Assembly: GCA_947165975.1 (NCBI GenBank)
Contig: CAMVCL010000002.1
Span: 4,987 to 68,986 of the forward strand
DNA length: 64,000 nucleotides
Source: an uncultured Candidatus Saccharibacteria bacterium
GTDB lineage: Bacteria; Patescibacteriota; Saccharimonadia; Saccharimonadales; Saccharimonadaceae
Direction of reading: 5' to 3'
In this document: positions 10,372 to 47,751 of the stretch, one piece after another
How the letters are laid out: each line of letters starts with the position of its first letter
Position numbering within the stretch: the first letter of the stretch is position 1
The notes under the pieces: model-generated
What the model was told of the DNA's origin: nothing
The model's input: only the letters and a program-made list of their open reading frames with translations
Databases searched by the model: none
Position numbers and translations under genes: made by a program

Positions 10372-10451
10372 TTTAAGAGAATTTAAACGTAGGGGGTTGC
10401 ATTCGTTTTTGACATGTGCCTATAATAGCGCAACCTAAGATAGGAGACACT

Positions 10452-12206
10452 ATGTTAACCAAAAAACATCGTGTCATACATGTCAAAACACTCGCTAAAA
10501 AATACACGATTCCAATTAGAATAATGGCCTTAACATTGATCGTGCTATCAGGCGCTCTTAATATTTCGGCAAGAGAAGTCGCTGCAACTGGCTGCCCCGA
10601 TTTAAAAGTAATCTTTATTCGTGGTTCTGGTGGCAAACGCTACACTAGCAAAGATTATCTAACCTTTAAGCGCGCGATGGAACAAAAACTCAACACTAGC
10701 TCGCTTCAATACATTATAGATGATCTAGACTACCCTGCTGCTAGTATTGATATCAGTGAAGGACACTTGGATACTTTTATAGGTGCCTACATTGGAGGTG
10801 GAGAAGCTTATAAATTTGGCGATAGTGTTCACGCGGGCACTAAATCACTCATAAAAGCCATTAATGACAACAAATGCAAAGATACTAAATATGTTATAGC
10901 TGGTTATTCTCAAGGCACAATTGTGCTATTAGATGCACTCAACAGTATCAGTGCCAATAAGATCATTTTTGCTGCCACATTCGGCGATCCCAAGATATAT
11001 CTTCCCGAAGGTGCTGGTCTTGTTCCTAAAGCTTGTAGTGGCAAAAATTTATCTTCATATCGTATCCATGTTCCAGACTGCCGTGCCTACAAAGGTATGC
11101 TTGGAGCTAAAAGACCATACATTCCATCTAGTTATCAATATAAATATGGTACCTGGTGTAATAAAAAAGATATTCTTTGTAGTTCACGGTTTAGTATTAG
11201 CGACCACACGGCTTATGTAGAAGACGGCCTTTATGAGGATGCTTCGCGGTTTATTTTTGCTAAAGTCGCCAAAGCCTTTAACTTCAAAAATGAATATACT
11301 TCACCTCATGATACCGCTATCATTATTAATTCGACTTCATCAATTCCAAATAAGATCCCGCAGTTTAAAGTTGCGGTCTACGATCTGGCCAGTAGGACTT
11401 TTGAAGCGGGCGGTCGTGTTGCTCTTTACGACTATCATGGCAGTGCTAACTCTTTTACGCCCACAAAAAGATGCGACTTCTCATCTTGCACCCTAGCGGA
11501 CATCAAAGTTCACCTAGACGATATAGAAAATGATCTGGGCCCACAGTCCAACAATGCATTACTCTCTAACTCTTTTCAGGTCATGAGGCAACTCAATTGG
11601 AGGTTTGGTTCAACTAAATCGCTAGCGATCTTTACGGATGCGAACTACGACTCATCAGGCCTCGGCGGTGTTAAGTTTTATGATGTTCAAAAGCTCAGTA
11701 AGCAAATCGATCCTGTCAATTTCTATATTATGACTAATCCTGAAAATGTTGAAAATTATCAGTCGCTCGCTAAAGCTACGGATGGCCAGGTTTTTTCTTC
11801 CGAGAATGACTCGTCAATATTTGTGGATGCCATCATGTCTCGTTACGATAGTCTACCGCGAGTAGAGGAAGAATTTCCTGATGAAAGTTATGACCATAAT
11901 TATCCATCTTTACGAATTGATCAAATAGACAGGGAATCGAACACTTCCGCAAAAGTTTTTTTCACTTCAACTGGCAGCAAGACCATTGTCATTTTAAATG
12001 ACACGATTCTTGGTGTTACGAATTTAAATCATCTTACTCTCACAGATTTAAGAAATGACCATGAGAACACCCTCACTTTAGTGCCAATCTTGAACGATTA
12101 TCGCGGAGAACCCGTCTCAACCAAATTAAATTCCAAAGAAAACGAAATCGAGCCTTTTTCATTAAAAGGATTTATGCCTAAAGCACCCAATACTGGTAGG
12201 CAATAA
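10452..12206 (+). CDS. secreted cutinase-family serine esterase with a long C-terminal extension
   Basis: GCPDLKVIFIRGSGG, nucleophile elbow IAGYSQGT, FGDPK and SDHTAY are in cutinase order. An N-terminal signal/TM is present. AGGAGA SD precedes the ATG at 10452; the ORF track starts at 10416. Confidence 0.65.
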   Translation: MLTKKHRVIHVKTLAKKYTIPIRIMALTLIVLSGALNISAREVAATGCPDLKVIFIRGSGGKRYTSKDYLTFKRAMEQKLNTSSLQYIIDDLDYPAASIDISEGHLDTFIGAYIGGGEAYKFGDSVHAGTKSLIKAINDNKCKDTKYVIAGYSQGTIVLLDALNSISANKIIFAATFGDPKIYLPEGAGLVPKACSGKNLSSYRIHVPDCRAYKGMLGAKRPYIPSSYQYKYGTWCNKKDILCSSRFSISDHTAYVEDGLYEDASRFIFAKVAKAFNFKNEYTSPHDTAIIINSTSSIPNKIPQFKVAVYDLASRTFEAGGRVALYDYHGSANSFTPTKRCDFSSCTLADIKVHLDDIENDLGPQSNNALLSNSFQVMRQLNWRFGSTKSLAIFTDANYDSSGLGGVKFYDVQKLSKQIDPVNFYIMTNPENVENYQSLAKATDGQVFSSENDSSIFVDAIMSRYDSLPRVEEEFPDESYDHNYPSLRIDQIDRESNTSAKVFFTSTGSKTIVILNDTILGVTNLNHLTLTDLRNDHENTLTLVPILNDYRGEPVSTKLNSKENEIEPFSLKGFMPKAPNTGRQ

Positions 12207-12209
12207 AAA

Positions 12210-12228
12210 GGAGCCCCCTCGGGGCTCC
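12210..12228. terminator. GC hairpin between convergent genes (ggagcccc-ctc-ggggctcc)
   Basis: 8-bp GC stem. The A5 run on + gives a T-tail for the minus-strand gene. Confidence 0.7.
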
Positions 12229-12240
12229 TCCATTCAGATC

Positions 12241-12681
12241 TTAATTTGTTGCATAGGCAATATTATGTTCCATCGCCTGAGTTTCCAATGCGACTAGACG
12301 TTCTGCGTCATTGATTGCTGAGTTAACGCAATGCTTTACGCGCGCCTTTTCTTCGGCTTTTTTAGCATCGTTCCAGCGATCCAAAGTACCAACTAGATAT
12401 CCAGTAATGCGACGTAATCTCTCAAACTTACCCTCTTCAAACCACATCGAATGTTCGTCGAAATATTCCTTCATTGCTGCTTCGCCAGCTTTTTCACCAA
12501 TCAATTTCATACCAGTTTCAACCAAACAAGAAACATGCATATTTTCGTATTGCTCAAATTTTGCCAAAGCATCTTTCACTTCTTTTTCTGAAACCTTTGC
12601 GTAACGTGAGATCGACTTCACAAATCTTTTTATGTCGAAATTTTCAACTTCATTTGGGTTTCTATAAATAATTTTCTTCAT
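12241..12681 (-). CDS. stand-alone NrdD-type glycyl-radical domain protein (146 aa)
   Basis: C-terminal KFERLRRITGYLVGTLDRWNDAKKAEEKARVKH is colinear with the class III RNR glycyl-radical signature (E. coli ...RRVCGYLGSPDARPFNAGKQEEVKRRVKH, from memory). No barrel domain. The N-terminus is loosely ATP-cone-like. Confidence 0.75.
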   Translation of the reverse strand: MKKIIYRNPNEVENFDIKRFVKSISRYAKVSEKEVKDALAKFEQYENMHVSCLVETGMKLIGEKAGEAAMKEYFDEHSMWFEEGKFERLRRITGYLVGTLDRWNDAKKAEEKARVKHCVNSAINDAERLVALETQAMEHNIAYATN

Positions 12682-12748
12682 GGTTTTTCCTTTCTAAGGG
12701 CTTCCTTTCAAGCGCCCACCATTTATTTATAAGCATTACCTACAATTC

Positions 12749-12776
12749 ATTATACCCCACATATAGCGTCTGTCAA
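12749..12776 (-). promoter_or_regulatory. sigma-70 promoter of the glycyl-radical gene (TTGACA-16-TATAAT on the minus strand)
   Basis: + strand tgtcaa at 12771-12776 and attata at 12749-12754. The spacer is filled by an NrdR-like box. Confidence 0.65.
12754..12769. promoter_or_regulatory. NrdR-box-like palindrome 1 (accccacatatagcgt)
   Basis: 12/16 match to the remembered NrdR box consensus acaCwAtATaTwGtgt. It lies in the promoter spacer. Confidence 0.5.
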
Positions 12777-12786
12777 TACATTTTTC

Positions 12787-12802
12787 ACACTAAATGTGGT
12801 GT
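12787..12802. promoter_or_regulatory. NrdR-box-like palindrome 2 (acactaaatgtggtgt)
   Basis: 14/16 identical to the box at 44902..44917 upstream of nrdD. It is 33 bp centre-to-centre from box 1. Confidence 0.55.
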
Positions 12803-12846
12803 TTTTCCACAATTTGGCCATTTCGTGATAAAATTAAGAAGATAAA

Positions 12847-13485
12847 ATGCCAAGTTGGAATATTCATTTAGAGGCGGGAGAGCGCCTTGCGAAAAAAATC
12901 AAGTTTTCCGGAGCCGAGCGGAAAGAATTTTTGTTAGGATGCTTACTGCCCGACATCAATAATGGCTATATTAATAAAGTTAAAATTAAAAAACAGCATA
13001 AAGAAACCCACTATGCCTATAATCAAAAGAGTTCTTTAAATTTTTATGCCGAGAACCGCCAAAAGATATTAGAAAAAGACCCCATCTATCTTGGATACCT
13101 TTTTCATTTATATACTGACGGCTTCTTTAATTATGATTTTTATCGCACCATTAAACGCCATAAACTTGGCGAAGGATTAAATCATGACGAAAAAAGAAAA
13201 ATAAAACACAATGATTTCTATATTTATGACACTAATTTCCATCATAATCTAGGCATCAAATCAGAAGATTTGCCCGTTCTGGCCAAGCGTGCAAACCAAA
13301 TTAGTGTCGCCGAAATCACTCCTGATGATATTCAAGAGATCGAAAATATCCTAGTTGGAGACCAATTAAATGCCTCATCAAAAGGAAAAAAATATCTATT
13401 TTACACCAAAAAACGCTTAGACGAATTAATGGAAGATATGATAGATAGTTTCATGAACGATTACATTAGGAGAAACCATGCCTGA
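12847..13485 (+). CDS. hypothetical protein, possibly zinc-dependent phospholipase C-like / metal hydrolase fold
   Basis: 212-aa ORF. N-terminal MPSWNIHLEAGERL and His-rich spacing weakly resemble the Zn-PLC family. Confidence 0.3.
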   Translation: MPSWNIHLEAGERLAKKIKFSGAERKEFLLGCLLPDINNGYINKVKIKKQHKETHYAYNQKSSLNFYAENRQKILEKDPIYLGYLFHLYTDGFFNYDFYRTIKRHKLGEGLNHDEKRKIKHNDFYIYDTNFHHNLGIKSEDLPVLAKRANQISVAEITPDDIQEIENILVGDQLNASSKGKKYLFYTKKRLDELMEDMIDSFMNDYIRRNHA

Positions 13486-14386
13486 ACTACCAGAAGTGGA
13501 GACCATTCGTCGCGGACTTAGTAAGTTTATTATTAATCATAAATTACAAGACACCGAAGTATTATGTGACAAATCCTTCATTGGCCAACCAGTCACAGGT
13601 AAAGTCAAATCAATTCGTCGTTTTGGCAAAGCATTAATTATCGATCTAGATAATAGTCAATCACTGATGATTCATCTGCGTATGACTGGCCAATTAATCT
13701 ATGATGACCGCAATAATACTAGTGAACGATATGCTGCTGGCCACCCCAGTGACAATTTTACTGCCGATTTACCGAATAAACAGACCAGAGTCATCTTAAA
13801 ATTAGACACCGGTACGCTCTATTTTAACGACCAACGCAAGTTTGGCTTTATTAAAGTGATAGCAACGAATGATGTTTCAAAAGATGCCTTTATTAAAAAG
13901 CTTGCTAAAGAACCCTGGGATATGTTACCAGACGAATTCTACGCAAAACTTCAAAAACACCCCAATTCCTGTATTAAAGCGACCATTTTGGACCAGACTA
14001 TCATTTGTGGATTAGGTAATATTTATGCAGACGAAGCACTTTTTGCTTCGCATATTCATCCAGAACGCAAATGTAGCTCCATTACAAAAGATGAATCAAC
14101 CAAACTTCTCGAATCGGCCAAGGAAGTTATGGATAAATCTATCGCTTCGGGTGGCTCGACCATGGCGACCTATGTTAAAGCAGACGGCACCAAAGGTGAT
14201 TATCTAGAAAAATTTGCCCAGGTTTTTCGTCGTGAGGGTCTAGACTGCCCGAATTGTCATACCAAGATTATCAAAATCAAAGTTGCCGGCCGAGGTACAC
14301 ATATTTGTCCACAATGTCAATTATTGGCTCCATCAAAGCCCCAAAGGAGCGCGTATCATCTTTCCGAAAGGAGCTCGAAAAAATGA
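13478..14386 (+). CDS. mutM: formamidopyrimidine-DNA glycosylase
   Basis: N-terminal MPELPEVETIRRGL. C-terminal zinc finger CPNC...CPQC is intact. Confidence 0.92.
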   Translation: MPELPEVETIRRGLSKFIINHKLQDTEVLCDKSFIGQPVTGKVKSIRRFGKALIIDLDNSQSLMIHLRMTGQLIYDDRNNTSERYAAGHPSDNFTADLPNKQTRVILKLDTGTLYFNDQRKFGFIKVIATNDVSKDAFIKKLAKEPWDMLPDEFYAKLQKHPNSCIKATILDQTIICGLGNIYADEALFASHIHPERKCSSITKDESTKLLESAKEVMDKSIASGGSTMATYVKADGTKGDYLEKFAQVFRREGLDCPNCHTKIIKIKVAGRGTHICPQCQLLAPSKPQRSAYHLSERSSKK

Positions 14387-15391: not shown

Positions 15392-17623
15392 ATGCCAGAC
15401 GACAACACCCAAACAACACCATCGATTCCGCCGGTTGATCCGACTGTGGCTGGTACTTCGGCACCAACTGAATCAGAATCCAATCCGATTACTGATTCGG
15501 CCCCTGAACCAACTCCGGCACCTGAACCCGTCCCAGAGCCTACTTCGGCCCCCGTCAGTTCTAGTGTTGTCGATCCAACTTTACCACCGCCCGATGACTC
15601 GGCATCTAAGCCGGCTCCGGTATCAGATAAGTCGTCTATCTATGCGGAAGTGACTAGCAAGATTGCCTCATCTAAAAATGTTTTAATTGCACTTTCTAGC
15701 GACCCATCTGTAGATGAGATGGCGGCCGCAATTGGTCTTCAGTTATTCCTTGATAAACTAGGCAAGCGTGCTACCGCGATTTATTCTGGTTCCACTCCAA
15801 ACGCGCTTGAATTTCTTAAACCAGAAGAAACTTTTGAGTCTACAGCTGACGCATTGCAGGATTTTGTCATTGCTCTTAATAAGGAAAAAGCTGACCATTT
15901 ACGCTATAAGCTGGATGGTGATTTTGTTAAGATTTATATTACTCCATACAAAACCAGAATAGCCGAAACTGATTTAGATTTTTCATATGGTGATTACAAT
16001 GTCGATCTCGTACTCGCATTAGACGTAGCAAACGGCATCGATCTTGATTCCGCCCTGCGTGAGCACGGTCGTATTATGCACGATGCTGTAATCATCAATA
16101 TTACGACAGGTAAACCAGGTAAATTTGGCGAAATTGAATGGAGCGATAAGTCTGCCAGCTCAGTATCAGAAATGATTGCAACCCTACTTTACAAAATTAG
16201 CGATGCAAAAATAGAAAAAGAGGAAGCTACCGCATTTCTCACTGGTATCGTCGCCGCCACCAACCGTTTTTCTAATTCCATGACTACATCCGATACAATG
16301 AAGATTGCATCCAAGCTTATGGAATCTGGTGCCAATCAACAGCTCGTTTCTAAGAATATTACTCCTGACGTTGATAACGAGATGGCAACCATAACTATGG
16401 CCACACCAGCTGGAGATTCGCTCGCCACACTAGAGACAGAACAAGAAGAAGTTGACCCGACTAAACTTGACATTCAACACGGCAATGAAAGTCCGACTGA
16501 CGAAGCTAAAGAGATTGATGATCCTATCACTGAAAAAAGCAGTTCTTTACTCGATGATTTAAAGGCTGCAGAAGCAAGTTTGGCTGGTGCGGGCGCCGAA
16601 GTCACACCAGAAGATAAGCAAACCGCCCTAAAAATCAATAATGGAGAAGAAGAAAAACCCTCCGACGACGACAAAGAGTCGGTTAGTCCAGAAGAATCTA
16701 AGATAGATAATGAAGAATCCAAGGTTGAGTCCAAAGATGAGAACACGATAAAATCTGACGAAAGTAAGCCTACAGAAAAAACAGAGACTTCTGCGGAAGA
16801 ATCCGAAGAAGATGCGCTTTCACTTTCGCTTAAAGAAGCTGCCGCTGAATTAACAAAAGAGGCTTCAAACGAAATCCCGGCTCCGGCTCCAGAACCAGTT
16901 CAAGAGCCTGCTCCGACGTCAGCTTCTGAGCCAGTTGCCGAAGCTCCAGCTGAAGCATCACAAGAAGAACCAGCCCCGGCTCCAGAACCAGCTCCAGTTC
17001 CAACGCCGGCTCCGACCCCAGCCCCAGCCCCGGCCCCGGCTCCAGAACCAGCTCCAGTTCCAACGCCGGTTCCCGAGCCAACCGCCCCAAAGTTTTTGGT
17101 AGAACCACTTCCAGAATCTGGAGAAGATGAGGGTTTATCGTCCGACAGTGAGCCAATACACTTAAATAGTCAAGAAAAAGTATTACAGCCTACTACCGAT
17201 TTATCAACTATCGGTACAGGTGAGCCAGGTGATAATAAATATGGTCAAATGCTTGAAGCTGCTCTTGAGGGTCTAAATAATGCAACTCCAACAATGCCTG
17301 CTGCAGCACCAGCTGCTAATCCAGCAGCTGCTAGCGCACCATCCGTGCCATCTAATCCAGAGATTAATGGTGTACCAGAAATGAATTATATGCCAATGCC
17401 AGGCGAAGAGATTCTGCCACCACCTCCGACTCCACCAATCAATATGGCAAATGTCACTGCGCCAAATCCTAGTGCCGCTCTACCACCTACTGAACCAATT
17501 CAGCCGGCCGGTCCCGCCCCAGAGCCCACTCCAGAACCATTAGGTGCTCAACCTGCTATGCAAGATCAGATATATACTCCACAAGCTGCTGATCCAGGCG
17601 CCTTCAAGATTCCTGGAATGTAA
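15392..17623 (+). CDS. NrnA-like DHH-domain protein with substituted catalytic motifs, flanked by Pro/Ala/Glu-rich disordered regions
   Basis: The core (approx. aa 95-320) follows DHH motif order: LIALSSDPSVDEMAAAIGL, LVLALDV, VIINITTG (where DHH is expected), GIVAATNRF. There is no DHHA1/GGGH. The termini are PAPEP-type low complexity. Confidence 0.55.
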   Translation: MPDDNTQTTPSIPPVDPTVAGTSAPTESESNPITDSAPEPTPAPEPVPEPTSAPVSSSVVDPTLPPPDDSASKPAPVSDKSSIYAEVTSKIASSKNVLIALSSDPSVDEMAAAIGLQLFLDKLGKRATAIYSGSTPNALEFLKPEETFESTADALQDFVIALNKEKADHLRYKLDGDFVKIYITPYKTRIAETDLDFSYGDYNVDLVLALDVANGIDLDSALREHGRIMHDAVIINITTGKPGKFGEIEWSDKSASSVSEMIATLLYKISDAKIEKEEATAFLTGIVAATNRFSNSMTTSDTMKIASKLMESGANQQLVSKNITPDVDNEMATITMATPAGDSLATLETEQEEVDPTKLDIQHGNESPTDEAKEIDDPITEKSSSLLDDLKAAEASLAGAGAEVTPEDKQTALKINNGEEEKPSDDDKESVSPEESKIDNEESKVESKDENTIKSDESKPTEKTETSAEESEEDALSLSLKEAAAELTKEASNEIPAPAPEPVQEPAPTSASEPVAEAPAEASQEEPAPAPEPAPVPTPAPTPAPAPAPAPEPAPVPTPVPEPTAPKFLVEPLPESGEDEGLSSDSEPIHLNSQEKVLQPTTDLSTIGTGEPGDNKYGQMLEAALEGLNNATPTMPAAAPAANPAAASAPSVPSNPEINGVPEMNYMPMPGEEILPPPPTPPINMANVTAPNPSAALPPTEPIQPAGPAPEPTPEPLGAQPAMQDQIYTPQAADPGAFKIPGM
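16974..17069 (+). repeat. 36-bp perfect direct repeat, two copies 60 bp apart, inside the Pro/Ala-rich coding region
   Basis: ccccggctccagaaccagctccagttccaacgccgg occurs at 16974..17009 and 17034..17069. Confidence 0.85.
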
Positions 17624-31459: not shown

Positions 31460-34400
31460 GTGAGCGAATCTGCACTAGAACAAAAAAGTGGACAAGAAAT
31501 CAATCCATCTTCTGAAGAATGGCAAAAGCTTGGTCATGAAGTCCCCAAAAGTGACACGGAGACTACCGACGGGGGATCATCTAATCCAGAACAACCTACA
31601 CAATCATCGGAACAAGTTGTCGACTCATTATCCAAAGAACAGCTTGAATACATTACCGAAAAATTAGGGAAACGTGGCCGTATCGCACTCATTGCGGCAG
31701 AACTTTCGAAAGAAGATCGCGATAATATTGTTCGTGAAGCCATTGACATGAAAGTCAAAGAGACTTCAAAAGAGCATCCTCTTATTACTAATTTCCCAAT
31801 TATTGGTAGCTTAGTCAAAGCAGGGTATGCTGCTAGGCATCGCGATCGGGCCCGAGCTGCTATTAAAGAAGAAGGAAACTTATCAGCGGCATTTACATCT
31901 TTGAATTTAGATCCTACTAAAAGCCGCATTATGAACAGCAACTCGGAAAACATCGAAGATCGTGCTTTTCAGGTATTAGAAAATGCCGGCTACTCCGAAG
32001 AAAACCAAATTGATCGTGCTAGTTCTAGGCTTAACCAGAATGAAATAGTTGAAAAAATGGATGATGCATCCCAGGCGGCAGTGAAACAGGCGCTTAACGA
32101 ATACTATTCTGGATTAAAAGGTGGAGAAAAATCTAAAGATGAACTCGCCAAAACATTTGACGAGCAGATTAAGGATACCTTTAAAGGCAAAGAATCTATT
32201 TCGTTTGATTCTATCAATAGGCAAAGGGAAGCACTTGAAAGCCTAGTCGATGATCCCAATATTCAAGCCAGCCAAGTTAAGACATACATCGATGAGCATC
32301 TGACATTATATAAAGCCTCCATGAAAGAAAGTATCAATACTACTCAAAAGGTAGACGGTATAATAAATGCGGTGGACAAAGCCGGGTTAATCGGCGGAGT
32401 TGCTTATGCGCTGATCGGTCGTGAAGCACGTTCTAAATTGCGTGGCGCACTTGGTACTATTGGCGGAGCGGGCGCCGTAGGTGCAGCAGTAGGTGCAGTT
32501 GCAGGTGCTATTCGTGGCGTCGAAAAAGCTAATGTTAAATTATCTAATGCAGAGATAAATGCAGTTACGGCCACCGATTCACCAGAAAGAATCGAAACAA
32601 ATGACCAAGAAGGTTCGGAAGCAGCCTCTCCGAATCCTGAAAAAGCTAAGCAAAAGGAAAACCTTTTTGCTATAATTAATCGCTACAAGAGTATCGCGAC
32701 CGGTGAAGAAAAATACTTAGCTAATATTGAAAAACTACGCGATCGTAAAGACGCTAACGATTTGATTGATAATTTCGATCAATTGATCAATCAATTTAAT
32801 GCAGAGGATAATGATTCCAGAAATAATCTCGTCGACGCCTATGCAGAAGTCATAGCACGAGGTCGCTTTTCGAACGAGAATCGCGTAGATTTGATCAGAT
32901 ATAAAGATAACCGTGCCGCGCTCGAACAGAAACTTTCGGAGGCCGAAAAGAAATTATATGGAGAGAATTCTGAAAATGTTGACAATCTTTTAAATGATGA
33001 AGACTCTGCCCTAAATAAGTTGATTCAAGAAAAAATGGAACAACTTAGTAATAACTATAATGAAGCCAATAAACTTCGTACCAAATTCCTCATCCGTTCT
33101 GCCTTAGTGGATGCTACGGCAGGTGCATTAATAGGTGCTAGCGCAGGTTCATTATTCCATCTTGTCTCTTCGCACTTACCCGAGGGGGGCATTGCTGGGG
33201 CTCTTGGCCTTGAAACAGCCGAAACTGACAATCTTCAAGGCAGTCAAGTCGAATTAGTTGAAGATCCCGATGGAGGATATACAGTTATGCTAGGCGATGA
33301 AGAACTAATAGGCAAAGGAGAGAGTTCTGGCATTGAATTCGATGACAGTGGCGCACTCACCAATGAATCCAAAGAGATGCTTGAAAAGGCAGGGATTGAT
33401 GTTAAAGAAAACATTACTGAACATACTTTTGAAAATGCCACCAAACAAGTTGATCTACGTGAATACTTCAACCCAGAGAATAAAGATGCAAATAATCTCA
33501 CTGAAATCTCAAGTCGTAGTTGGATCACTGACGCTAGCGGCCGTGATCAGATTATGGTTGGCAATACCCATATGGATGGAGAAGGCAACATCATCATGCA
33601 AGTCGCCCCTACAGCCAACTCGGATGTTACTCTCGAAGACATGAAAATGGTTCTAACACCAGGCAATGGTAATATTGATACTGCTATAACCGTTGATGTA
33701 AACCCAGATGGAACTATCGAGATCCCTGCTGGCTCTCCGGCCGCCAGTTTCTTTGACGGTGAAAACTTCCAAGGTGGTTATGCCGAAATAGCCCGTGAAG
33801 GAGCAGATGGCCATCTAGATGTCTATACTACTATGGGCGATGGTAGGCCAAGCATCAATACTCTTACTATAGATAATCCAGACGCAACTTACAACACCTA
33901 TGATTATTCATTTACTATCAACGATCAATCATATGAAGTTTCTGTTCCGGAAAATATTACGGCTGCTGCCCGCATGGAGGCACTAAATGGTATTGAGTCC
34001 CTTAAGGGTACCGGTGAACCAATTGGTTACGAAGCGAACGGAGATATTACTGGACTAACCACTACTAGCGGCGAGACAGTTGAAGTCGAGCACTTTGAAC
34101 ATCACGGTGGCTATAGTGATACGACAGACAGCTATTTTGGTGAAAAAGATGGAGTTTATAATAGTGGCGCATCGGTAATTCGTTCAATGGTCGGAGAAGA
34201 AGGGAAGGGGTTAAGCTCCGGTGAAGTTGACCGTATCTTCCTGGAAAAAGTAAATAGTGGCGAGATCTCTGAGGGTGATGTCGTAGAGGAATATCTTAAG
34301 ACCATTGGTAATTCACCAGAAGCTCTTACTACTACCCGCGCAATGATGGGTGGCTTTGAAATGGATTTGAATGGTGATGGTGTTGCGGAATTGATAGATA

Positions 34401-35422
34401 CACAAGATGAGATTAATATTGCCGCAGATATTTTGAGTCGAGATCCAGAAGCATACGACAATTTCGTCAACGACACTTATGAAGTGTTCTATGAGAAGAT
34501 TGAGGGTGGCTCCATTCGCTTTGTTGACTATACGCAAGAACAATATCAATTTACGACGTGGGGCGTATTAGACAAAGATACCAACAATATCTTGCAACGA
34601 CTAGGTACAGTTGGTGATCGCCAAACTGACGGCGTTGGCATAGTCTTTGTTGACAAAGATGGTAACTCAATTTACGACAAAGAAATTGCGAGAAATCTCT
34701 GGCATTTACCAGAAGGTTATAATCTAAATTATATTGCTGATCGTCTCAACTGCGATCAAAAAACTGGTAACGGCTTCTTTACAGAACAATCAACCGGCAA
34801 TGAAGGTACAGGCGAAGAAGGCACTGGTGACGAAGGTACCGGCAATGAGGGTACTGGTAATGAAGGAACTGGTGACGAAGGTACCGGCAATGAGGGTACT
34901 GGTAATGAAGGCACTGGTGACGAAGGTACCGGCAATGAGGGTACTGGCAACGAAGGTACAGGCGAAGAAGGTACTGGTAACGAAGGAACCGGAGAAGAAG
35001 GTACTGGCGACGAAGGCACCGATATTGAACCAAAGGATTATGAGAACATGGAACGCATCGATAAAAACATTGATAATGATATCAAAGACGATATCGGCAC
35101 CGAAGAAATTAGACATAATCCTAATCCTGGTGTAGACGAGAGAGACTTGACCGAGAAACCTTCATCTGATGAATACCAAGGCACAGAAGTTAAAACAACC
35201 CCATCAGAAGCATCCACGAAGGCAGAACCAGTACAAGAAAAAGTCAGCCAGGATAATAACTACAGCTCAGACAGAGGCGGCAGTAATTCTCAAGAATATT
35301 CCCCAGTTAAAGAAAATAGCGCAGCTCAAGAAAAAGCCGATAGTAGCTCTACTCCAGTAAAAGAAGCTCCAGTCAAACAAGAAGAAGTTAAAACAGAGCT
35401 AGAAGACTTGGGGATTGAATAG
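31460..35422 (+). CDS. cassette B giant membrane/surface protein (1320 aa) with (TGxEG)15 repeat and conserved C-terminal module
   Basis: GTG start 8 nt after GGAGG. Gly/Ala-rich hydrophobic segments (GGAGAVGAAVGAVAGAI; ATAGALIGASAGSLFHLV). The C-terminus is colinear with the 571-aa protein. Confidence 0.75.
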   Translation: MSESALEQKSGQEINPSSEEWQKLGHEVPKSDTETTDGGSSNPEQPTQSSEQVVDSLSKEQLEYITEKLGKRGRIALIAAELSKEDRDNIVREAIDMKVKETSKEHPLITNFPIIGSLVKAGYAARHRDRARAAIKEEGNLSAAFTSLNLDPTKSRIMNSNSENIEDRAFQVLENAGYSEENQIDRASSRLNQNEIVEKMDDASQAAVKQALNEYYSGLKGGEKSKDELAKTFDEQIKDTFKGKESISFDSINRQREALESLVDDPNIQASQVKTYIDEHLTLYKASMKESINTTQKVDGIINAVDKAGLIGGVAYALIGREARSKLRGALGTIGGAGAVGAAVGAVAGAIRGVEKANVKLSNAEINAVTATDSPERIETNDQEGSEAASPNPEKAKQKENLFAIINRYKSIATGEEKYLANIEKLRDRKDANDLIDNFDQLINQFNAEDNDSRNNLVDAYAEVIARGRFSNENRVDLIRYKDNRAALEQKLSEAEKKLYGENSENVDNLLNDEDSALNKLIQEKMEQLSNNYNEANKLRTKFLIRSALVDATAGALIGASAGSLFHLVSSHLPEGGIAGALGLETAETDNLQGSQVELVEDPDGGYTVMLGDEELIGKGESSGIEFDDSGALTNESKEMLEKAGIDVKENITEHTFENATKQVDLREYFNPENKDANNLTEISSRSWITDASGRDQIMVGNTHMDGEGNIIMQVAPTANSDVTLEDMKMVLTPGNGNIDTAITVDVNPDGTIEIPAGSPAASFFDGENFQGGYAEIAREGADGHLDVYTTMGDGRPSINTLTIDNPDATYNTYDYSFTINDQSYEVSVPENITAAARMEALNGIESLKGTGEPIGYEANGDITGLTTTSGETVEVEHFEHHGGYSDTTDSYFGEKDGVYNSGASVIRSMVGEEGKGLSSGEVDRIFLEKVNSGEISEGDVVEEYLKTIGNSPEALTTTRAMMGGFEMDLNGDGVAELIDTQDEINIAADILSRDPEAYDNFVNDTYEVFYEKIEGGSIRFVDYTQEQYQFTTWGVLDKDTNNILQRLGTVGDRQTDGVGIVFVDKDGNSIYDKEIARNLWHLPEGYNLNYIADRLNCDQKTGNGFFTEQSTGNEGTGEEGTGDEGTGNEGTGNEGTGDEGTGNEGTGNEGTGDEGTGNEGTGNEGTGEEGTGNEGTGEEGTGDEGTDIEPKDYENMERIDKNIDNDIKDDIGTEEIRHNPNPGVDERDLTEKPSSDEYQGTEVKTTPSEASTKAEPVQEKVSQDNNYSSDRGGSNSQEYSPVKENSAAQEKADSSSTPVKEAPVKQEEVKTELEDLGIE
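34793..35017 (+). repeat. 15 x 15-bp in-frame tandem repeat encoding T-G-N/D/E-E-G, with a 45-bp higher-order unit x3
   Basis: Units run from 34793. TGDEG-TGNEG-TGNEG triplets repeat almost perfectly at the DNA level. Confidence 0.9.
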
Positions 35423-44863: not shown

Positions 44864-44892
44864 TTGCATTTCCATATTTAGTGTTATATACT
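44864..44892 (+). promoter_or_regulatory. nrdD promoter (TTGCAT-17-TATACT, or TGtTATATA extended -10)
   Basis: Direct reading. The spacer is occupied by an NrdR-like box. Confidence 0.55.
44869..44884. promoter_or_regulatory. NrdR-box-like element A (tttccatatttagtgt)
   Basis: The right half is a perfect NrdR half-site, 11/16 overall. It lies in the promoter spacer. Confidence 0.45.
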
Positions 44893-44901
44893 AAGATACA
44901 G

Positions 44902-44917
44902 ACACTAAATGTAGCGT
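44902..44917. promoter_or_regulatory. NrdR-box-like element B (acactaaatgtagcgt)
   Basis: 12/16 self-complementary. It is 33 bp centre-to-centre from element A and 14/16 identical to 12787..12802. Confidence 0.55.
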
Positions 44918-44954: not shown

Positions 44955-47150
44955 ATGTTCAAAAGAATCGTCAAGAGAGACGGTAAAATCGTTAAATTCG
45001 ATCCAGAAAAGATTACTGAAGCTATCGCTAAGGCTGGTCTTGCCACTGAAGAATTCAAACATGATCGCGCGAAGGCTCTAACCGAAAAAGTTTTGACTCG
45101 CGCTGAGGAGAAAATCACTTCACGTACTCCCAATGTTGAACAACTCCAAGACATCGTCGAAGAGGTGCTTATGGAATCTAGCTTCAAGAAGACTGCTCGT
45201 GCCTACATACAATATCGCCAAGAACGTTCCCGCCGTCGTGAAGCCAAATCTGATCTCATGATGATCTATCGTACCATTAGTCATGCTGACGCCTCCGAAG
45301 ACTCCGACGTTAAGCGTAGCAACGCCAACGTCGATGGTAACTCCGCCATGGGCAAAATGCTTCAATTTGGTGCTGAAGGCTCAAAGGTCTTTGCTAAGTC
45401 ATTACTCCTTCGTCCTGATATTGCCGCCGCACATGATAATGGCGATATTCATATTCATGATCTAGATTTCTATGCTACTGGTACGCTCACATGCTGCCAA
45501 TCTGACCCATTCGTATTATTCGAAAATGGTGGTTTCAACACCGGCCACGGTCACTTACGTACTCCAAATTCTATCGGTTCTTACGGCGCACTTGCTGCTA
45601 TCTTGCTCCAGGCCAATCAGAATGAACAGCACGGTGGTCAGTCTATCCCTAATTTTGACTATGCTATGGCGCCAGGCGTCAACAAATCATTCCGCAAGGC
45701 CCTGAAGCGCAATCTAGCTAAATATAACAAATTCACTAAGAAGCATCTTGAACTCGATGTCAAAGACACTTACGAATATGGTGATGACGAAAAACTTAAA
45801 AAAGCCAAATGGCCAAAAGAGGTTATTGAAGCTTCCAACGATGATGTTGAGCGCGAAACTCTTCAAGCCATGGAGGGATTCATTCATAATCTCAATACCA
45901 TGCATTCGCGTGCTGGCGCCCAGGTACCATTTACCTCAATCAACTTCGGTACCGACACGAGCCCATCCGGTCGTTTAGTTTCTAAATACCTACTTGAGGC
46001 TACCGAAAATGGTCTTGGTAAAGGTGAGACTCCGATTTTCCCAATTTCTATCTTTAAGGTTAAATCTGGCATCAATTACGAACCAGATGATCCAAACTAC
46101 GACCTCTTTAAAAAATCTATGGAAGTTTCCGCAAAACGTCTCTTCCCAAATTTCTGCTTTATTGATGCTCCATATAATCTCAAATATTACAAAAAAGGCG
46201 ATTATCGCACCGAGATTGCTACCATGGGTTGCCGTACTCGTGTATTCTCGTCCGTTTTTCCAGAATCAGACGGCATCGTCACCGGTCGTGGCAACCTTTC
46301 CTTCACCACTGTGAATCTAGTTCGTATTGGCATCAAACACGGTATTTGTACTGGTGAGCGTAAAGAGGCTGATTGGGAAGGATTCTATAAAGAACTCGAC
46401 GAAAAGATGGACTTGGTTAGGGATGAATTACTTGAACGCTTTGAATTCCAGGCTAACCAACATGTCCGTAACTTCCCATTCCTCATGGGGCAAGGGAACT
46501 GGTTCGGTTCAGAAAAACTCGGGCCTAATGATACATTGCGTGATGTCATCAAACACGGTACACTTTCAATCGGTTTCATCGGCCTAGCTGAAACTCTCGT
46601 CGCTATGACTGGAAAACACCATGGCGAAGATGAAGACGCTCGCGATCTTGGCCTTGACATTGTTACTCATATGCGTGAGAAATGCGACTCATACTGCAAG
46701 AAACACAAGCTTAACTTTAGTCTCCTTGCTACTCCAGCCGAAGGTATTGCTGGGCGTTTTACAAAGATTGATCGCAAGGAATTTGGCAAGATTAAAGGCG
46801 TAACTGATCGTGAATTCTACACCAACTCTTTCCATGTGCCAGTCTATTACCCAATTTCTGCTTTTGAAAAGATTGAGATTGAAGCTCCGTATCATAACCT
46901 CTGTAATGCTGGCCACATTACCTACATCGAATTAGATGGTGACCCATCTCAAAATATCGCTGCCTTTGAATCTGTAATCCGCAAGATGCACGATGAAGGT
47001 ATTGGCTATGGTTCAGTCAACCATCCAGTAGATCGTGATCCAGTTTGTGGCTTCTCTGGTATAATCACCGGTAATCGCTGTCCACACTGCGGACGTCTCG
47101 AAGGCGATTTGCCGTTCGAAAAAGTCAAAACCTGCGCGAAAGGGGAATAA
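44955..47150 (+). CDS. nrdD: anaerobic (class III) ribonucleoside-triphosphate reductase catalytic barrel, lacking the C-terminal glycyl-radical segment
   Basis: N-terminal ATP-cone IVKRDGKIVKFDPEKITEAIAKA. NrdD core blocks (GDIHIHDLDFY, TMGCRTRV, LLATPAEG). It ends ...VCGFSGIITGNRCPHCGRLEGDLPFEKVKTCAKGE* with no RxxGY. Confidence 0.88.
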   Translation: MFKRIVKRDGKIVKFDPEKITEAIAKAGLATEEFKHDRAKALTEKVLTRAEEKITSRTPNVEQLQDIVEEVLMESSFKKTARAYIQYRQERSRRREAKSDLMMIYRTISHADASEDSDVKRSNANVDGNSAMGKMLQFGAEGSKVFAKSLLLRPDIAAAHDNGDIHIHDLDFYATGTLTCCQSDPFVLFENGGFNTGHGHLRTPNSIGSYGALAAILLQANQNEQHGGQSIPNFDYAMAPGVNKSFRKALKRNLAKYNKFTKKHLELDVKDTYEYGDDEKLKKAKWPKEVIEASNDDVERETLQAMEGFIHNLNTMHSRAGAQVPFTSINFGTDTSPSGRLVSKYLLEATENGLGKGETPIFPISIFKVKSGINYEPDDPNYDLFKKSMEVSAKRLFPNFCFIDAPYNLKYYKKGDYRTEIATMGCRTRVFSSVFPESDGIVTGRGNLSFTTVNLVRIGIKHGICTGERKEADWEGFYKELDEKMDLVRDELLERFEFQANQHVRNFPFLMGQGNWFGSEKLGPNDTLRDVIKHGTLSIGFIGLAETLVAMTGKHHGEDEDARDLGLDIVTHMREKCDSYCKKHKLNFSLLATPAEGIAGRFTKIDRKEFGKIKGVTDREFYTNSFHVPVYYPISAFEKIEIEAPYHNLCNAGHITYIELDGDPSQNIAAFESVIRKMHDEGIGYGSVNHPVDRDPVCGFSGIITGNRCPHCGRLEGDLPFEKVKTCAKGE

Positions 47151-47711
47151 ATGGCCGAAAAAACCGATTGGCATCAAATCGCATTAGATAAAATCGCCAA
47201 ACAACTTGAAACTCCAGAGGGGTATATCCGCCTCTCTGGTCCCCTAGAACATGATAATATCGTCAATGGTGATGGCCTTCGTGTCGTGCTTTGGACTCAA
47301 GGTTGCCCTAACCATTGTAAGGGTTGCCAAAATCCAGAGACTTGGGATTACGAAGCTGGTTTCCTTATCGAAATCGAAGAGATTAAACAAAGGCTTAAAC
47401 AGTTCCGTGGGCAAGCCGGCATTACCTTTTGTGGTGGTGAACCATTTGTCCAAGCCAAAGCTTGTAAAGAAATCGCCGATTGGGCTAGAAAAGAATTAAA
47501 CTGGAACGTTTGGAGCTTCTCCGGTTTTACGCATGAAATCATCAAAGAATATGGCGGCGAACCTTGGGAATTACTAAAATCGCTCGATGCATTGATCGAC
47601 GGCCCATTTATACTAAGTCAGCGCGATTTAAGTCTTAGGTTTCGCGGCTCTAAAAATCAGCGACTCTTAAGACTTGAGCTAGGTACCGGCAAAATATTGT
47701 CAATCGAATAA
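47151..47711 (+). CDS. nrdG: class III RNR activating enzyme (radical SAM)
   Basis: CX3CX2C cluster motif GCPNHCKGC, and GITFCGGEP. The ATG abuts the nrdD stop. Confidence 0.88.
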   Translation: MAEKTDWHQIALDKIAKQLETPEGYIRLSGPLEHDNIVNGDGLRVVLWTQGCPNHCKGCQNPETWDYEAGFLIEIEEIKQRLKQFRGQAGITFCGGEPFVQAKACKEIADWARKELNWNVWSFSGFTHEIIKEYGGEPWELLKSLDALIDGPFILSQRDLSLRFRGSKNQRLLRLELGTGKILSIE

Positions 47712-47751
47712 TATCTGTTATAATGATAAATAATAAAATGTGGAGGAAATC

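What the first reader, a model, noticed from the sequence alone, without database searches (positions are those of the whole stretch)
44955..47711. nrdD-nrdG operon in which NrdD terminates before the glycyl-radical loop
The NrdD here has the N-terminal ATP-cone and the barrel blocks. Its last residues are ...GIGYGSVNHPVDRDPVCGFSGIITGNRCPHCGRLEGDLPFEKVKTCAKGE*. The TAA at 47148-47150 is followed immediately by the nrdG ATG at 47151, so there is no room for a shifted-frame continuation.

In canonical NrdDs the second CxxC of the Zn site is followed within ~15-20 residues by RxxGY. Here that stretch is absent. The first CxxC is also degraded to C-G-F-S. NrdG keeps an intact CX3CX2C radical-SAM motif, so an activase is present but its normal substrate loop is missing in cis. 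Together with the ORF at 12241..12681, this points to a two-polypeptide class III RNR.
Basis: seen in the sequence. Interest (0 to 1): 0.8.

Follow-up and report, generated by a model that had tools for sequence, protein, structure and literature searches.

The report
Two-piece anaerobic ribonucleotide reductase
In this Saccharibacteria genome the oxygen-free enzyme that makes DNA building blocks lacks the short loop that carries its catalytic radical, and that loop is instead encoded 32 kb away on a small, conserved, apparently co-regulated protein; this arrangement has apparently not been described for this enzyme in a cellular organism.

Summary
NrdD (44955-47150, 731 aa) has the ATP-cone, NxN flap, thiyl Cys426 and most of the Zn site. 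It stops 18 residues after CPHCG and has no R-x-x-G-Y motif. nrdG starts at the next base.

The missing piece is the 146-aa ORF at 12241-12681(-). Its residues 82-118 match profile positions 708-744 of 746, and NrdD covers positions 1-709.

This is not decay or an artefact:
- All 120 closest NrdDs end the same way.
- The small gene is intact in all 84 related loci, under strong purifying selection.
- At least 80 species-level Ca. Saccharibacteria/Nanosyncoccus genomes carry it, never within 10 kb of nrdDG.
- Both promoters carry the same NrdR-type double box, found nowhere else in the window.

New here: the small protein's N-terminal 80 residues are predicted to adopt an ATP-cone-like fold. 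Gut phages also have the same core/loop split, as adjacent genes.

Best reading: an obligate two-polypeptide class III RNR with a separately made, replaceable radical subunit. It works like GrcA/YfiD for pyruvate formate-lyase, but is constitutive. No biochemistry exists, and the docking model failed. This is a new variant of a known kind.

The parts
44955..47150 (+). nrdD core subunit, 731 aa. It contains an ATP-cone (residues 4-92), the NxN flap (SNANVDGNS, about residues 122-130), the barrel with thiyl Cys426 (MGCRTR), and a Zn half-domain (D695-x2-C698 ... C709-x2-C712). It has an 18-residue tail and no glycyl-radical loop.
   Evidence: Pfam NRDD 123-714 and ATP-cone 4-92. NF005497 positions 1-709 of 746. 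Alignment to 8p23. No R..G[YF] motif.
47151..47711 (+). nrdG, the radical-SAM activase, 186 aa. Its start codon directly follows the nrdD stop codon.
   Evidence: TIGR02491 at 130.8 bits against a cut-off of 126.1; Fer4_12 and Radical_SAM. Junction sequence.
44869..44917 (+). Double NrdR-type operator of nrdDG: box TTTCCATATTTAGTGT (44869-44884), a 17-bp linker, and box ACACTAAATGTAGCGT (44902-44917). It overlaps a putative promoter, TTGCAT (44864-44869) - 17 nt - TATACT (44887-44892).
   Evidence: A two-box PWM trained only on the small-gene promoters of other genomes scores 35.8 bits here. The next best site in the window scores -9, and the best of 30 shuffles scores 5.3. The boxes are conserved upstream of nrdD in L088-L091. 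All six key positions of the published consensus (C4 A6 A8 T9 T11 G13, PMC13584703) are present.
12241..12681 (-). Glycyl-radical subunit, 146 aa. Residues 1-80 form an ATP-cone-like domain. Residues 82-118 are the NrdD-type Gly loop (FERLRRITG94YLVGTLDRWNDAKKAEEKARVKH). Residues 121-146 form a conserved C-terminal helix.
   Evidence: NF005497 positions 708-744 of 746 and PF13597 positions 532-562 of 562. 8p23 residues 707-739. AF2 model and Foldseek search. Family conservation.
12754..12802 (-). Double NrdR-type operator of the small gene: box ACACCACATTTAGTGT (12802-12787), a 17-bp linker, and box ACGCTATATGTGGGGT (12769-12754).
   Evidence: A pair of boxes 32-33 bp apart (start to start) is present in 69 of 82 orthologous upstream regions.
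12749..12776 (-). Perfect sigma-70 consensus promoter of the small gene, TTGACA - 16 nt - TATAAT.
   Evidence: 12 of 12 matches. Conserved across loci.
12202..12231 (-). Intrinsic terminator of the small gene: a G+C-rich 10-11 bp stem, a 3-nt loop, then UUUUUAUU.
   Evidence: Sequence. Fold at -19.6 kcal/mol.

Best explanation
This is an obligately two-polypeptide class III (anaerobic) ribonucleotide reductase.

The 731-aa NrdD core supplies the ATP-cone, the substrate and effector sites, the thiyl Cys426 and the Zn hairpin.

The 146-aa protein encoded 32 kb away supplies the glycyl-radical loop. NrdG is inferred to install the radical on Gly94 of this small protein. The loop is then inferred to insert into the NrdD barrel next to Cys426, as the cis loop does in canonical NrdD.

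The small protein's N-terminal ATP-cone-like domain and its C-terminal helix are inferred to provide the docking energy that the covalent link normally gives, possibly by pairing with the NrdD cone.

Both transcription units sit behind the same NrdR-type double operator, so the two halves are probably made together.

A likely benefit is economy. Oxygen destroys a glycyl-radical enzyme by cutting the chain at the radical Gly. Here only a cheap 146-aa cartridge, transcribed from a consensus-strength promoter, needs replacing. This is the GrcA/YfiD principle made constitutive.

Shown: the complementary architecture, its conservation, purifying selection, the shared operator, and the parallel split in phages.

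Inferred: activation on Gly94, docking, the role of the cone-like domain, the identity of the regulator, and the selective advantage.
For: 1. Exact complementarity. NrdD covers NF005497 positions 1-709 and the small ORF covers 708-744 of 746. On 8p23 the ranges are 5-704 and 707-739.

2. Catalytic apparatus. The core keeps the catalytic motifs (MGCRTR, NxN flap, HxHD-type motif) at about 50% identity to the active P. copri enzyme. NrdG is intact.

3. Conserved truncation. All 120 closest NrdDs (at least 90% identical) are 725-777 aa. All ten read in full end just after CPHCG and none has the Gly motif.

4. Conserved small gene.
- More than 2000 clusters at 90% identity.
- Full-length relatives down to 40% identity.
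- At least 80 species-level Saccharibacteria/Nanosyncoccus genomes.
- Intact in 84 of 84 loci, with an ATG start in 83.
- pN 0.125 against a saturated pS of 0.86. pN is 0.049 in the Gly loop and 0.164 in the N-domain.

5. Co-occurrence. Both genes lie on this contig. In assembly JAFWDS01 the core is in L091 and the small gene in L009.

6. Shared operator. The two-box operator is found only at these two promoters in 64 kb. It fits the published NrdR box consensus.

7. Independent unit. The small gene has a 12/12 promoter and its own terminator.

8. Cone-like domain. The N-domain model has pLDDT 80-89, and the top 43 Foldseek PDB hits are all ATP-cone proteins: NrdR, NrdB, NrdD and NrdA.

9. Parallel case in phages. 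Gut-phage contigs encode a Gly-less NrdD core, then an 87-92 aa Gly-loop ORF with its own Shine-Dalgarno sequence, then NrdG.
Against: - No biochemical, EPR, expression or structural data exist.
- The fused-chain AlphaFold run failed (mean pLDDT 41), so docking is unmodelled.
- I could not scan whole genomes, so a second, full-length NrdD or another RNR class elsewhere in the genome is not excluded.
- No nrdR gene was found in the 1.48 Mb of held sequence.
- The published loose NrdR regex matches at chance level in this AT-rich window. The linker is 17 bp, at the upper edge of the usual 15-16 bp.
- The ATP-cone assignment rests on fold only. Pfam ATP-cone is not hit by any of 41 family members, hhalign is weak, and the K-R-D-G nucleotide motif is not kept.
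- The Zn site has three Cys plus Asp instead of four Cys.
Confidence: 0.8

Rival explanations
1. GrcA/YfiD-type spare part only. The small protein rescues an oxygen-damaged, full-length NrdD encoded elsewhere in the genome, and the tail-less NrdD here is a non-essential or inactive paralogue.
For: YfiD/GrcA does this for pyruvate formate-lyase (review PMC13450708). I could not scan whole genomes. Stand-alone NrdD-type Gly-loop proteins also occur in bacterial contigs without an adjacent nrdD (L086).
Against: All 120 closest NrdD relatives are tail-less and 90-96% identical, which is stronger conservation than the small protein shows. nrdG is translationally abutted to the tail-less gene. The shared operator links the small gene to this nrdDG operon. 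In phages the tail-less core, the Gly-loop ORF and nrdG form one cluster with no full-length copy nearby.
Confidence: 0.07
2. Decaying locus. nrdD was truncated by a nonsense mutation, is on its way to loss in a nucleotide-scavenging epibiont, and the small ORF is an unrelated leftover.
For: Saccharibacteria have reduced genomes and acquired nrdD by horizontal transfer (PMC7427843). The Zn site is degraded, and the tail after the Zn site is variable.
Against: The same end point occurs in every close relative and in 120 of 120 phage-type relatives that are only 55% identical. No frameshifts or internal stops occur in 84 small-gene orthologues. pN is far below pS. The promoter, operator and terminator are conserved.
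Confidence: 0.03
3. The small protein is a regulator or decoy rather than the catalytic radical carrier. It could be a cone-domain protein that titrates NrdG or NrdD, while the core obtains its radical in some other way.
For: The N-domain has the fold of a regulatory domain, and its best structural matches are NrdR repressors. Cone-cone pairing controls activity in class III RNRs (PMC12662201).
Against: No alternative radical source is known for NrdD. The most conserved part of the small protein is the Gly loop itself, with R88, R91, G94, Y95 and G98 invariant and pN 0.049. It matches the catalytic loop of active enzymes residue for residue.
Confidence: 0.05
4. The two halves are joined after transcription or translation (trans-splicing, a split intein, frameshifting), or the split is an assembly artefact.
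For: Phage nrdD genes are often interrupted by introns, inteins and homing endonucleases (PMC3653736, PMC12880540).
Against: The genes are 32 kb apart on opposite strands, each with its own promoter. The small gene also has its own terminator. The core tail is only 18 aa and the small protein's N-domain is cone-like, so neither is an intein half. The same arrangement appears in independent assemblies from many samples.
Confidence: 0.02

Closest known systems
Canonical class III RNR NrdD/NrdG (P. copri 8p23, phage T4 1h78, S. thermophilus 9d3x)
   Same: ATP-cone, NxN flap, barrel, thiyl Cys, Zn hairpin, Gly-loop sequence RITGYLVGT..RWN, and a radical-SAM activase encoded next to nrdD.
   Different: The Gly loop is on a different polypeptide, encoded 32 kb away on the other strand. 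[quoted passage not shown] The first Zn Cys is Asp.
GrcA/YfiD, the autonomous glycyl-radical 'spare part' of pyruvate formate-lyase (and T4 Y06I)
   Same: A small stand-alone protein carries a glycyl-radical loop that is activated by the parent enzyme's activase and inserts into the parent barrel. The parent fragment and the small protein appear to overlap by one short strand (FEKV in the core tail and FERL in the small protein). The review describes such an overlap for YfiD and cleaved PFL.
   Different: - GrcA backs up a full-length enzyme after oxygen damage. Here the parent never has its own loop.
- The loop is NrdD-type, not PFL-type.
- The N-terminus is a folded cone-like domain, not disordered.
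- The 2026 review states that spare parts are known only for formate lyases.
Split RNRs: NrdJa/NrdJb of Pseudomonas (class II), the Aeromonas phage Aeh1 NrdA split by a homing endonuclease (recalled from memory, not checked here), and fragmented nrdD of T4-like and Jug phages
   Same: A catalytic RNR subunit is delivered as two polypeptides. The Jug phage study reports a 91-aa C-terminal nrdD fragment with no evidence of splicing (PMC12880540), which resembles the phage loci seen here.
   Different: In those cases the pieces are adjacent genes, usually separated by a mobile element, intron or intein. Here the pieces are unlinked and separately promoted in a cellular genome. The small piece has gained an extra domain, and no mobile element is involved.
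ATP-cone 'transplants' (NrdR; Leeuwenhoekiella NrdB with an N-terminal cone)
   Same: A cone fold is attached to a non-catalytic RNR component. These are the best structural matches (9fvr, 5olk).
   Different: There is no sequence-level ATP-cone signature and the K-R-D-G motif is replaced by Y-x-x-P. A cone fused to a glycyl-radical loop did not turn up in my literature searches.

Membership tests
Class III RNR catalytic subunit (NrdD) | RNR/GRE barrel with the thiyl-radical Cys on the finger loop | tested here: met
   PF13597 at E 8e-180. NF005497 at 1022 bits against a cut-off of 764. EIATMGC426RTRVF aligns to P. copri Cys416.
Class III RNR catalytic subunit (NrdD) | C-terminal glycyl-radical loop (R-[IV]-x-G-[YF]) in the same chain | tested here: not met
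   The profile match ends at position 709 of 746, and no R..G[YF] occurs anywhere in the protein. The loop is supplied in trans by ORF 12241-12681.
Class III RNR catalytic subunit (NrdD) | Four-Cys structural Zn site before the Gly loop | tested here: not met
   D695-P-V-C698 ... C709-P-H-C712, so the first Cys is Asp. This is conserved in relatives. Metal binding was not testable.
Class III RNR catalytic subunit (NrdD) | Dedicated radical-SAM activase NrdG | tested here: met
   TIGR02491 above its cut-off, with the CX3CX2C motif; the gene abuts nrdD.
Class III RNR catalytic subunit (NrdD) | Ribonucleotide reduction that depends on a glycyl radical | not testable with these tools
   This needs an enzyme assay and EPR.
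GrcA/YfiD spare-part proteins | Small autonomous protein carrying a glycyl-radical loop | tested here: met
   146 aa, with its own promoter and terminator and an invariant Gly loop.
GrcA/YfiD spare-part proteins | Homology to the PFL C-terminus (Pfam Gly_radical PF01228) | tested here: not met
   Only NRDD (PF13597) is hit. No PF01228 hit was found in any of 41 members.
GrcA/YfiD spare-part proteins | Coexists with a full-length parent enzyme that has its own loop | tested here: not met
   The parent in this window and its 120 closest relatives lack the loop. Whole genomes were not scanned.
ATP-cone domain (PF03477) | Sequence match to the family profile, including the nucleotide-binding K-R-x-G motif | tested here: not met
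   No Pfam ATP-cone hit in 41 members at E up to 5. hhalign probability is 13%. The sequence IIYRNP replaces V-K-R-D-G.
ATP-cone domain (PF03477) | Cone fold (beta hairpin plus four-helix bundle) | tested here: met
   AF2 N-domain pLDDT is 80-89. The top 43 Foldseek PDB hits are all ATP-cone proteins, with probability up to 1.0 and E 1e-2. This is a prediction, not a solved structure.
NrdR regulon | Two 16-bp boxes with C4, A6, A8, T9, T11 and G13, about three helical turns apart, in the promoter | tested here: met
   All six positions are present in all four boxes, with a 17-bp linker (the accepted range is 14-17 bp; PMC13584703). The loose published regex alone is not specific in this window.
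NrdR regulon | An nrdR gene in the genome, and binding of NrdR to the boxes | tested here: inconclusive
   No NrdR signature was found in the window or in 1.48 Mb of held loci. The rest of the genome was not available.
Intein- or intron-split RNR genes | Intervening intron, intein or homing endonuclease, or split-intein halves at the break | tested here: not met
   The core tail is 18 aa. The small protein's N-domain is cone-like with no Hint/intein Pfam hit. The genes are 32 kb apart on opposite strands.

The most novel reading that the evidence does not exclude
A whole, so far unrecognised branch of class III RNRs, found in rumen and gut Saccharibacteria and in many gut phages, works as a core enzyme plus a diffusible, separately regulated glycyl-radical subunit.

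In Saccharibacteria that subunit has acquired an ATP-cone-derived domain. Delivery of the radical to the core could then itself be a controlled step, for example through cone-cone pairing with the NrdD cone, possibly sensitive to nucleotides. The oxygen-damaged part could also be swapped without remaking the 731-aa enzyme.

This would be the first glycyl-radical enzyme outside the formate lyases with a trans-acting radical carrier, and the first in which the carrier is obligatory.
Probability: 0.45. Interest if true: 0.85.

Novelty: new variant of a known kind. Interest (0 to 1): 0.78.

Why it matters
Glycyl-radical enzymes are thought to carry their radical on their own C-terminus. The one known exception, GrcA/YfiD, is a repair part for pyruvate formate-lyase. 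A 2026 review states that it is unknown whether other glycyl-radical enzymes have such parts (PMC13450708).

A natural, conserved RNR in which the radical loop is always a separate protein would:
- answer that question for class III RNRs;
- give experimenters a system in which activation by NrdG, docking of the radical domain and radical transfer can be studied as separate binding steps;
- show a new use of the ATP-cone fold;
- explain how oxygen-exposed, genome-reduced epibionts and phages keep an oxygen-labile enzyme running cheaply;
- correct annotation, since the small subunit is currently labelled 'hypothetical protein' and the cores 'anaerobic ribonucleoside triphosphate reductase' with no flag.

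Tried and rejected
1. AlphaFold model of the complex.
- MAFFT misplaced the small-protein family onto the NrdD cone whenever many NrdDs were included.
- The accepted run used three NrdD homologues and gave mean pLDDT 41, which is unusable.

2. Sequence-level proof that the N-domain is an ATP-cone. There was no Pfam hit in 41 members. hhalign was weak. A PDB profile search found only the Gly loop.

3. Looking for nrdD or nrdG next to the small gene. None was found within 10 kb in 84 loci.

4. Looking for nrdR. It is absent from the window and the held loci, and no literature links NrdR to Saccharibacteria.

5. The published NrdR regex as a specificity test. It matches at chance level in this AT-rich window. 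I used a PWM trained on other genomes instead.

6. Exact look-ups of the window's own two proteins. Neither is on record.

7. Context of distant family members P0151, P0156 and P0167. The contigs were too short to be informative.

8. A search of cultured phages for stand-alone Gly-loop ORFs. Only unannotated faecal contigs and full-length C. difficile phage NrdDs were found.

9. Literature searches for a split or spare-part NrdD. Nothing matching turned up, apart from phage gene fragmentation reports.

10. Rejected readings: artefact, pseudogene, intein or trans-splicing. See the rival explanations.
Full report
**What the window is**

The window is bacterial chromosome. It carries RNase P RNA, four tRNAs, PolA, IleRS and a RelA/SpoT protein. 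Identical or near-identical proteins come from Candidatus Saccharibacteria, and related loci are titled Ca. Nanosyncoccus (the G3 group), mostly from ruminant guts.

**Checking the observation**

- ORF 44955-47150(+) encodes 731 aa ending ...DRDPVCGFSGIITGNRCPHCGRLEGDLPFEKVKTCAKGE*.
- The TAA stop is at 47148-47150 and the nrdG ATG is at 47151.
- The protein hits Pfam NRDD (E 8e-180) and ATP-cone.
- It matches NCBIfam NF005497 over profile positions 1-709 of 746.
- It aligns to the structurally solved Prevotella copri NrdD (8p23) over residues 5-704 of 743.
- The NxN flap, the HxHD region and the thiyl-radical Cys (EIATMGC426RTRVF, equal to P. copri Cys416) are conserved.
- The match stops two residues after the second CxxC.
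- No R..G[YF] motif exists anywhere in the protein.
- NrdG passes TIGR02491.

The first Zn pair aligns as D695-P-V-C698 against P. copri C-L-D-C, so the first cysteine is replaced by Asp.

**Where the missing loop is**

ORF 12241-12681(-) encodes 146 aa. Residues 82-118 (FERLRRITGYLVGTLDRWNDAKKAEEKARVKH) match NF005497 positions 708-744 of 746, Pfam NRDD positions 532-562 of 562, and 8p23 residues 707-739.

The two proteins therefore tile the family profile with no gap and almost no overlap.

A six-frame search of the window with the loop peptide finds only this site, at E 3e-19. The next best hit is E 0.4.

[quoted passage not shown] It consists of a Zn site followed by the buried Gly711 loop and a tail (PMC11226230). 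The split here falls inside that domain. The Zn hairpin stays on the core and the Gly loop goes to the small protein.

**Is it real and maintained?**

The core:
- The 120 closest NrdD clusters are 90-96% identical and 725-741 aa long.
- A few are 766-777 aa. Those read in full owe this to an upstream start call or a Lys-rich tail.
- Most tails after the last CPHCG read RLEGD[LV]PFEKVC[NS]CAKG[EK], and the rest are other short tails. None has the Gly motif.

The small protein:
- It defines a family of more than 2000 clusters at 90% identity.
- Full-length relatives reach down to 40% identity.
- A scan of one genome per species found it in at least 80 Saccharibacteria/Nanosyncoccus genomes.
- In 84 loci the gene is intact, with an ATG start in 83 and a length of 143-148 aa.
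- Across 81 orthologues, synonymous sites are saturated (pS 0.86) while pN is 0.125. By region, pN is 0.164 in the N-domain, 0.049 in the Gly loop and 0.118 in the C-terminal helix.

Linkage and co-occurrence:
- In none of the 84 loci is nrdD or nrdG within 10 kb.
- The small gene's own neighbourhood (Fpg, a Zn-dependent phospholipase C family gene, the small gene, a cutinase-family gene) is syntenic in the three other loci examined.
- Both genes co-occur on this contig. They also co-occur in assembly JAFWDS01, with the core in L091 and the small gene in L009.

Pseudogene, artefact and splicing explanations are therefore very unlikely.

**Co-regulation**

The small gene is a self-contained unit. 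It has a 12/12 consensus promoter, TTGACA-16-TATAAT, a Shine-Dalgarno sequence and a strong terminator.

Its promoter is overlapped by two 16-bp boxes, ACACCACATTTAGTGT and ACGCTATATGTGGGGT, separated by 17 bp. A pair of such boxes 32-33 bp apart (start to start) is present in 69 of 82 orthologous upstream regions.

I trained a two-box weight matrix only on those other genomes and scanned the window:
- The small gene's own promoter scores 53 bits.
- The nrdD promoter at 44869-44917 scores 35.8 bits.
- The next best site scores -9 bits.
- The best of 30 shuffles scores 5.3 bits.

The same boxes precede nrdD in four related loci.

All four boxes carry the six positions that define the NrdR box: C4, A6, A8, T9, T11 and G13. 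The published arrangement is two boxes with a 15-16 bp linker, and 14-17 bp is accepted in the authors' own scan (PMC13584703).

Caveats:
- The authors' loose regex matches at chance level in this AT-rich window.
- No nrdR gene is present in the sequence I hold.

The shared operator is shown. NrdR as the regulator is inferred.

**The extra domain**

AlphaFold2 on a 41-sequence alignment gives pLDDT 80-89 for residues 11-80, with a beta-beta-alpha-alpha-beta-alpha-alpha topology. Confidence is low for the isolated Gly loop, as expected for a loop that is normally buried in a barrel.

Foldseek against the PDB returns ATP-cone proteins as all of the top 43 hits. These are E. coli and Streptomyces NrdR, the cone-bearing NrdB of Leeuwenhoekiella, S. 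thermophilus and P. copri NrdD, and class Ia NrdA. The best E-value is 1e-2 and the probability reaches 1.0.

Sequence methods do not see the similarity. The canonical V-K-R-D-G start is I-I-Y-R-N-P here. MAFFT nevertheless aligns the family onto the NrdD cone (M1, F15, D16 and Y84 coincide).

I therefore call it an ATP-cone-like fold of unknown nucleotide-binding capacity. Cone-cone pairing is an established control mechanism in class III RNRs (PMC12662201; PMC11226230). That makes docking through the cones a reasonable but untested idea.

**A wider phenomenon**

The representative search also returned many other short proteins with a start Met, a different N-domain and the same Gly loop.

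- One of them (P0188, 92 aa) lies in a phage contig with the gene order NrdD (603 aa), a 77-aa ORF, the Gly-loop ORF, then NrdG.
- That NrdD lacks a cone and is 55% identical to the window's core. It ends ...DRDPVCGFNGIINDVCPCCGRREHKIVTEVVKRSRTED*. This is the same Asp-for-Cys change and the same truncation point.
- All 120 of its closest relatives lack the Gly motif, and 117 have DRDPxCG.
- In a phage lineage seen in five samples, the 629-aa core is overlapped by 11 nt by an 87-aa Gly-loop ORF with its own Shine-Dalgarno sequence. Two small ORFs and nrdG follow.
- A 2026 study of Jug phages noted nrdD 'split' fragments, including a 91-aa piece with no splicing evidence (PMC12880540).

So the core/loop split exists in phages as adjacent genes. 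The Saccharibacteria version differs in three ways: it is in a cellular genome, it is unlinked with a duplicated operator, and it carries the cone-like domain.

**Possible origin**

The core tails look like remnants of the strand before the Gly. An unsplit-type sequence, the L085 ORF, reads CPSCG-RHEADGPSFERLRRITGY. The Nanosyncoccus cores read CPHCG-RLEGDLPFEKVCNCAKGE*. In both, a Gly sits 17 residues after the CxxCG, and the core stops one residue later.

Both halves thus keep an F-E-[KR]-[VL] strand. This echoes the strand overlap between YfiD and oxygen-cleaved PFL described in the GRE review. It suggests duplication of the 3' end followed by decay of the cis copy. This is inference only.

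**Comparison with what is known**

It works like a canonical NrdD/NrdG system, with the radical loop supplied the way GrcA/YfiD supplies it to pyruvate formate-lyase.

- It is not a member of the GrcA family. The loop is NrdD-type, the N-domain is folded, and no full-length parent is seen.
- It fails two textbook NrdD features in cis, the Gly loop and the four-Cys Zn site.
- The split class II NrdJa/b and phage 'genes in pieces' are the nearest precedents for a two-chain RNR catalytic subunit (PMC9669993, PMC3653736).
- The 2026 GRE review states that spare parts are known only for formate lyases and that it is undetermined whether others exist.
- The Saccharibacteria paper that discusses nrdD acquisition does not mention a split in its nrdD passages.
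- My literature searches found no description of this arrangement. The library is not exhaustive.

**Verdict**

- Best explanation: an obligate two-polypeptide class III RNR with a replaceable, co-regulated glycyl-radical subunit (confidence about 0.8).
- Open points: docking, the role of the cone-like domain and the selective advantage are inferred. The complex model failed, and whole-genome absence of another RNR was not testable.
- Novelty: a new variant of a known kind.
- Interest: 0.78.

Noticed in passing
L095-L099 3501-6529; L087 5961-8850: Gut-phage contigs encode a Gly-loop-less NrdD core (603-629 aa, with the same DRDPVCG Zn variant), a separate 87-92 aa Gly-loop ORF with its own Shine-Dalgarno sequence, and NrdG in one cluster. 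All 120 closest core relatives lack the Gly motif.
   Followed up: partly
L085 5801-6530: A 103-aa ORF holds half a Zn site (CPSCG), the Gly loop and a C-terminal tail like that of the small-protein family. It sits directly upstream of nrdG in a cobalamin-biosynthesis neighbourhood. Its 5' part looks like the antisense of a neighbouring gene. It may be an assembly chimera or an evolutionary intermediate.
   Followed up: partly
window 47094-47147 and relatives (P0312, P0316, P0365, P0140): The core tail after the Zn site is variable and often Cys-rich (VCNCAKGE, ACC, ACDCGC, CDCVNCDCADCSCTKKD), and in one case Lys-rich. This recalls the redox-shuttle Cys tails of class I/II RNRs. The window's copy has a single Cys.
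   Followed up: partly
L086 4409-4711 and proteins P0174, P0178, P0181, P0198, P0222, P0295: Other stand-alone NrdD-type Gly-loop proteins (about 90-140 aa) have a different, non-cone N-domain (motif ..YI..A..K.P......L....GEDV.I.Y..). At least one lies in a bacterial context with no nrdD within about 4 kb.
   Followed up: partly
window 12730-12745(-) and most of 82 orthologous loci: A conserved leader, AGGTAATGCTTATAA, lies just downstream of the -10 box of the small gene. A variable, often hairpin-forming stretch follows before the Shine-Dalgarno sequence. Its function is unknown.
   Followed up: no
protein P0150: A 3962-aa protein has 57 repeated stretches that match residues 105-142 of the small protein. 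It was the top hit of the representative search and is probably a compositional or coiled-coil match.
   Followed up: no
window 15392-17623(+) and 31460-35422(+): Two large ORFs (743 aa and 1320 aa) have no Pfam match at E 1e-3.
   Followed up: no
window 47151-47250(+): NrdG has an N-terminal extension of about 30 residues relative to the TIGR02491 profile; the match starts at residue 33.
   Followed up: no
window 47697-47724(+): An 11/12 sigma-70-like promoter (TTGTCA-16-TATAAT with an upstream TG) sits at the very end of nrdG, ahead of the 289-aa ORF at 47740.
   Followed up: no
window 10416-14386: The small gene's neighbourhood is conserved in the three related loci checked (L092-L094). It consists of a cutinase-family protein (convergent), a Zn-dependent phospholipase C family protein (divergent) and Fpg/MutM.
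   Followed up: partly
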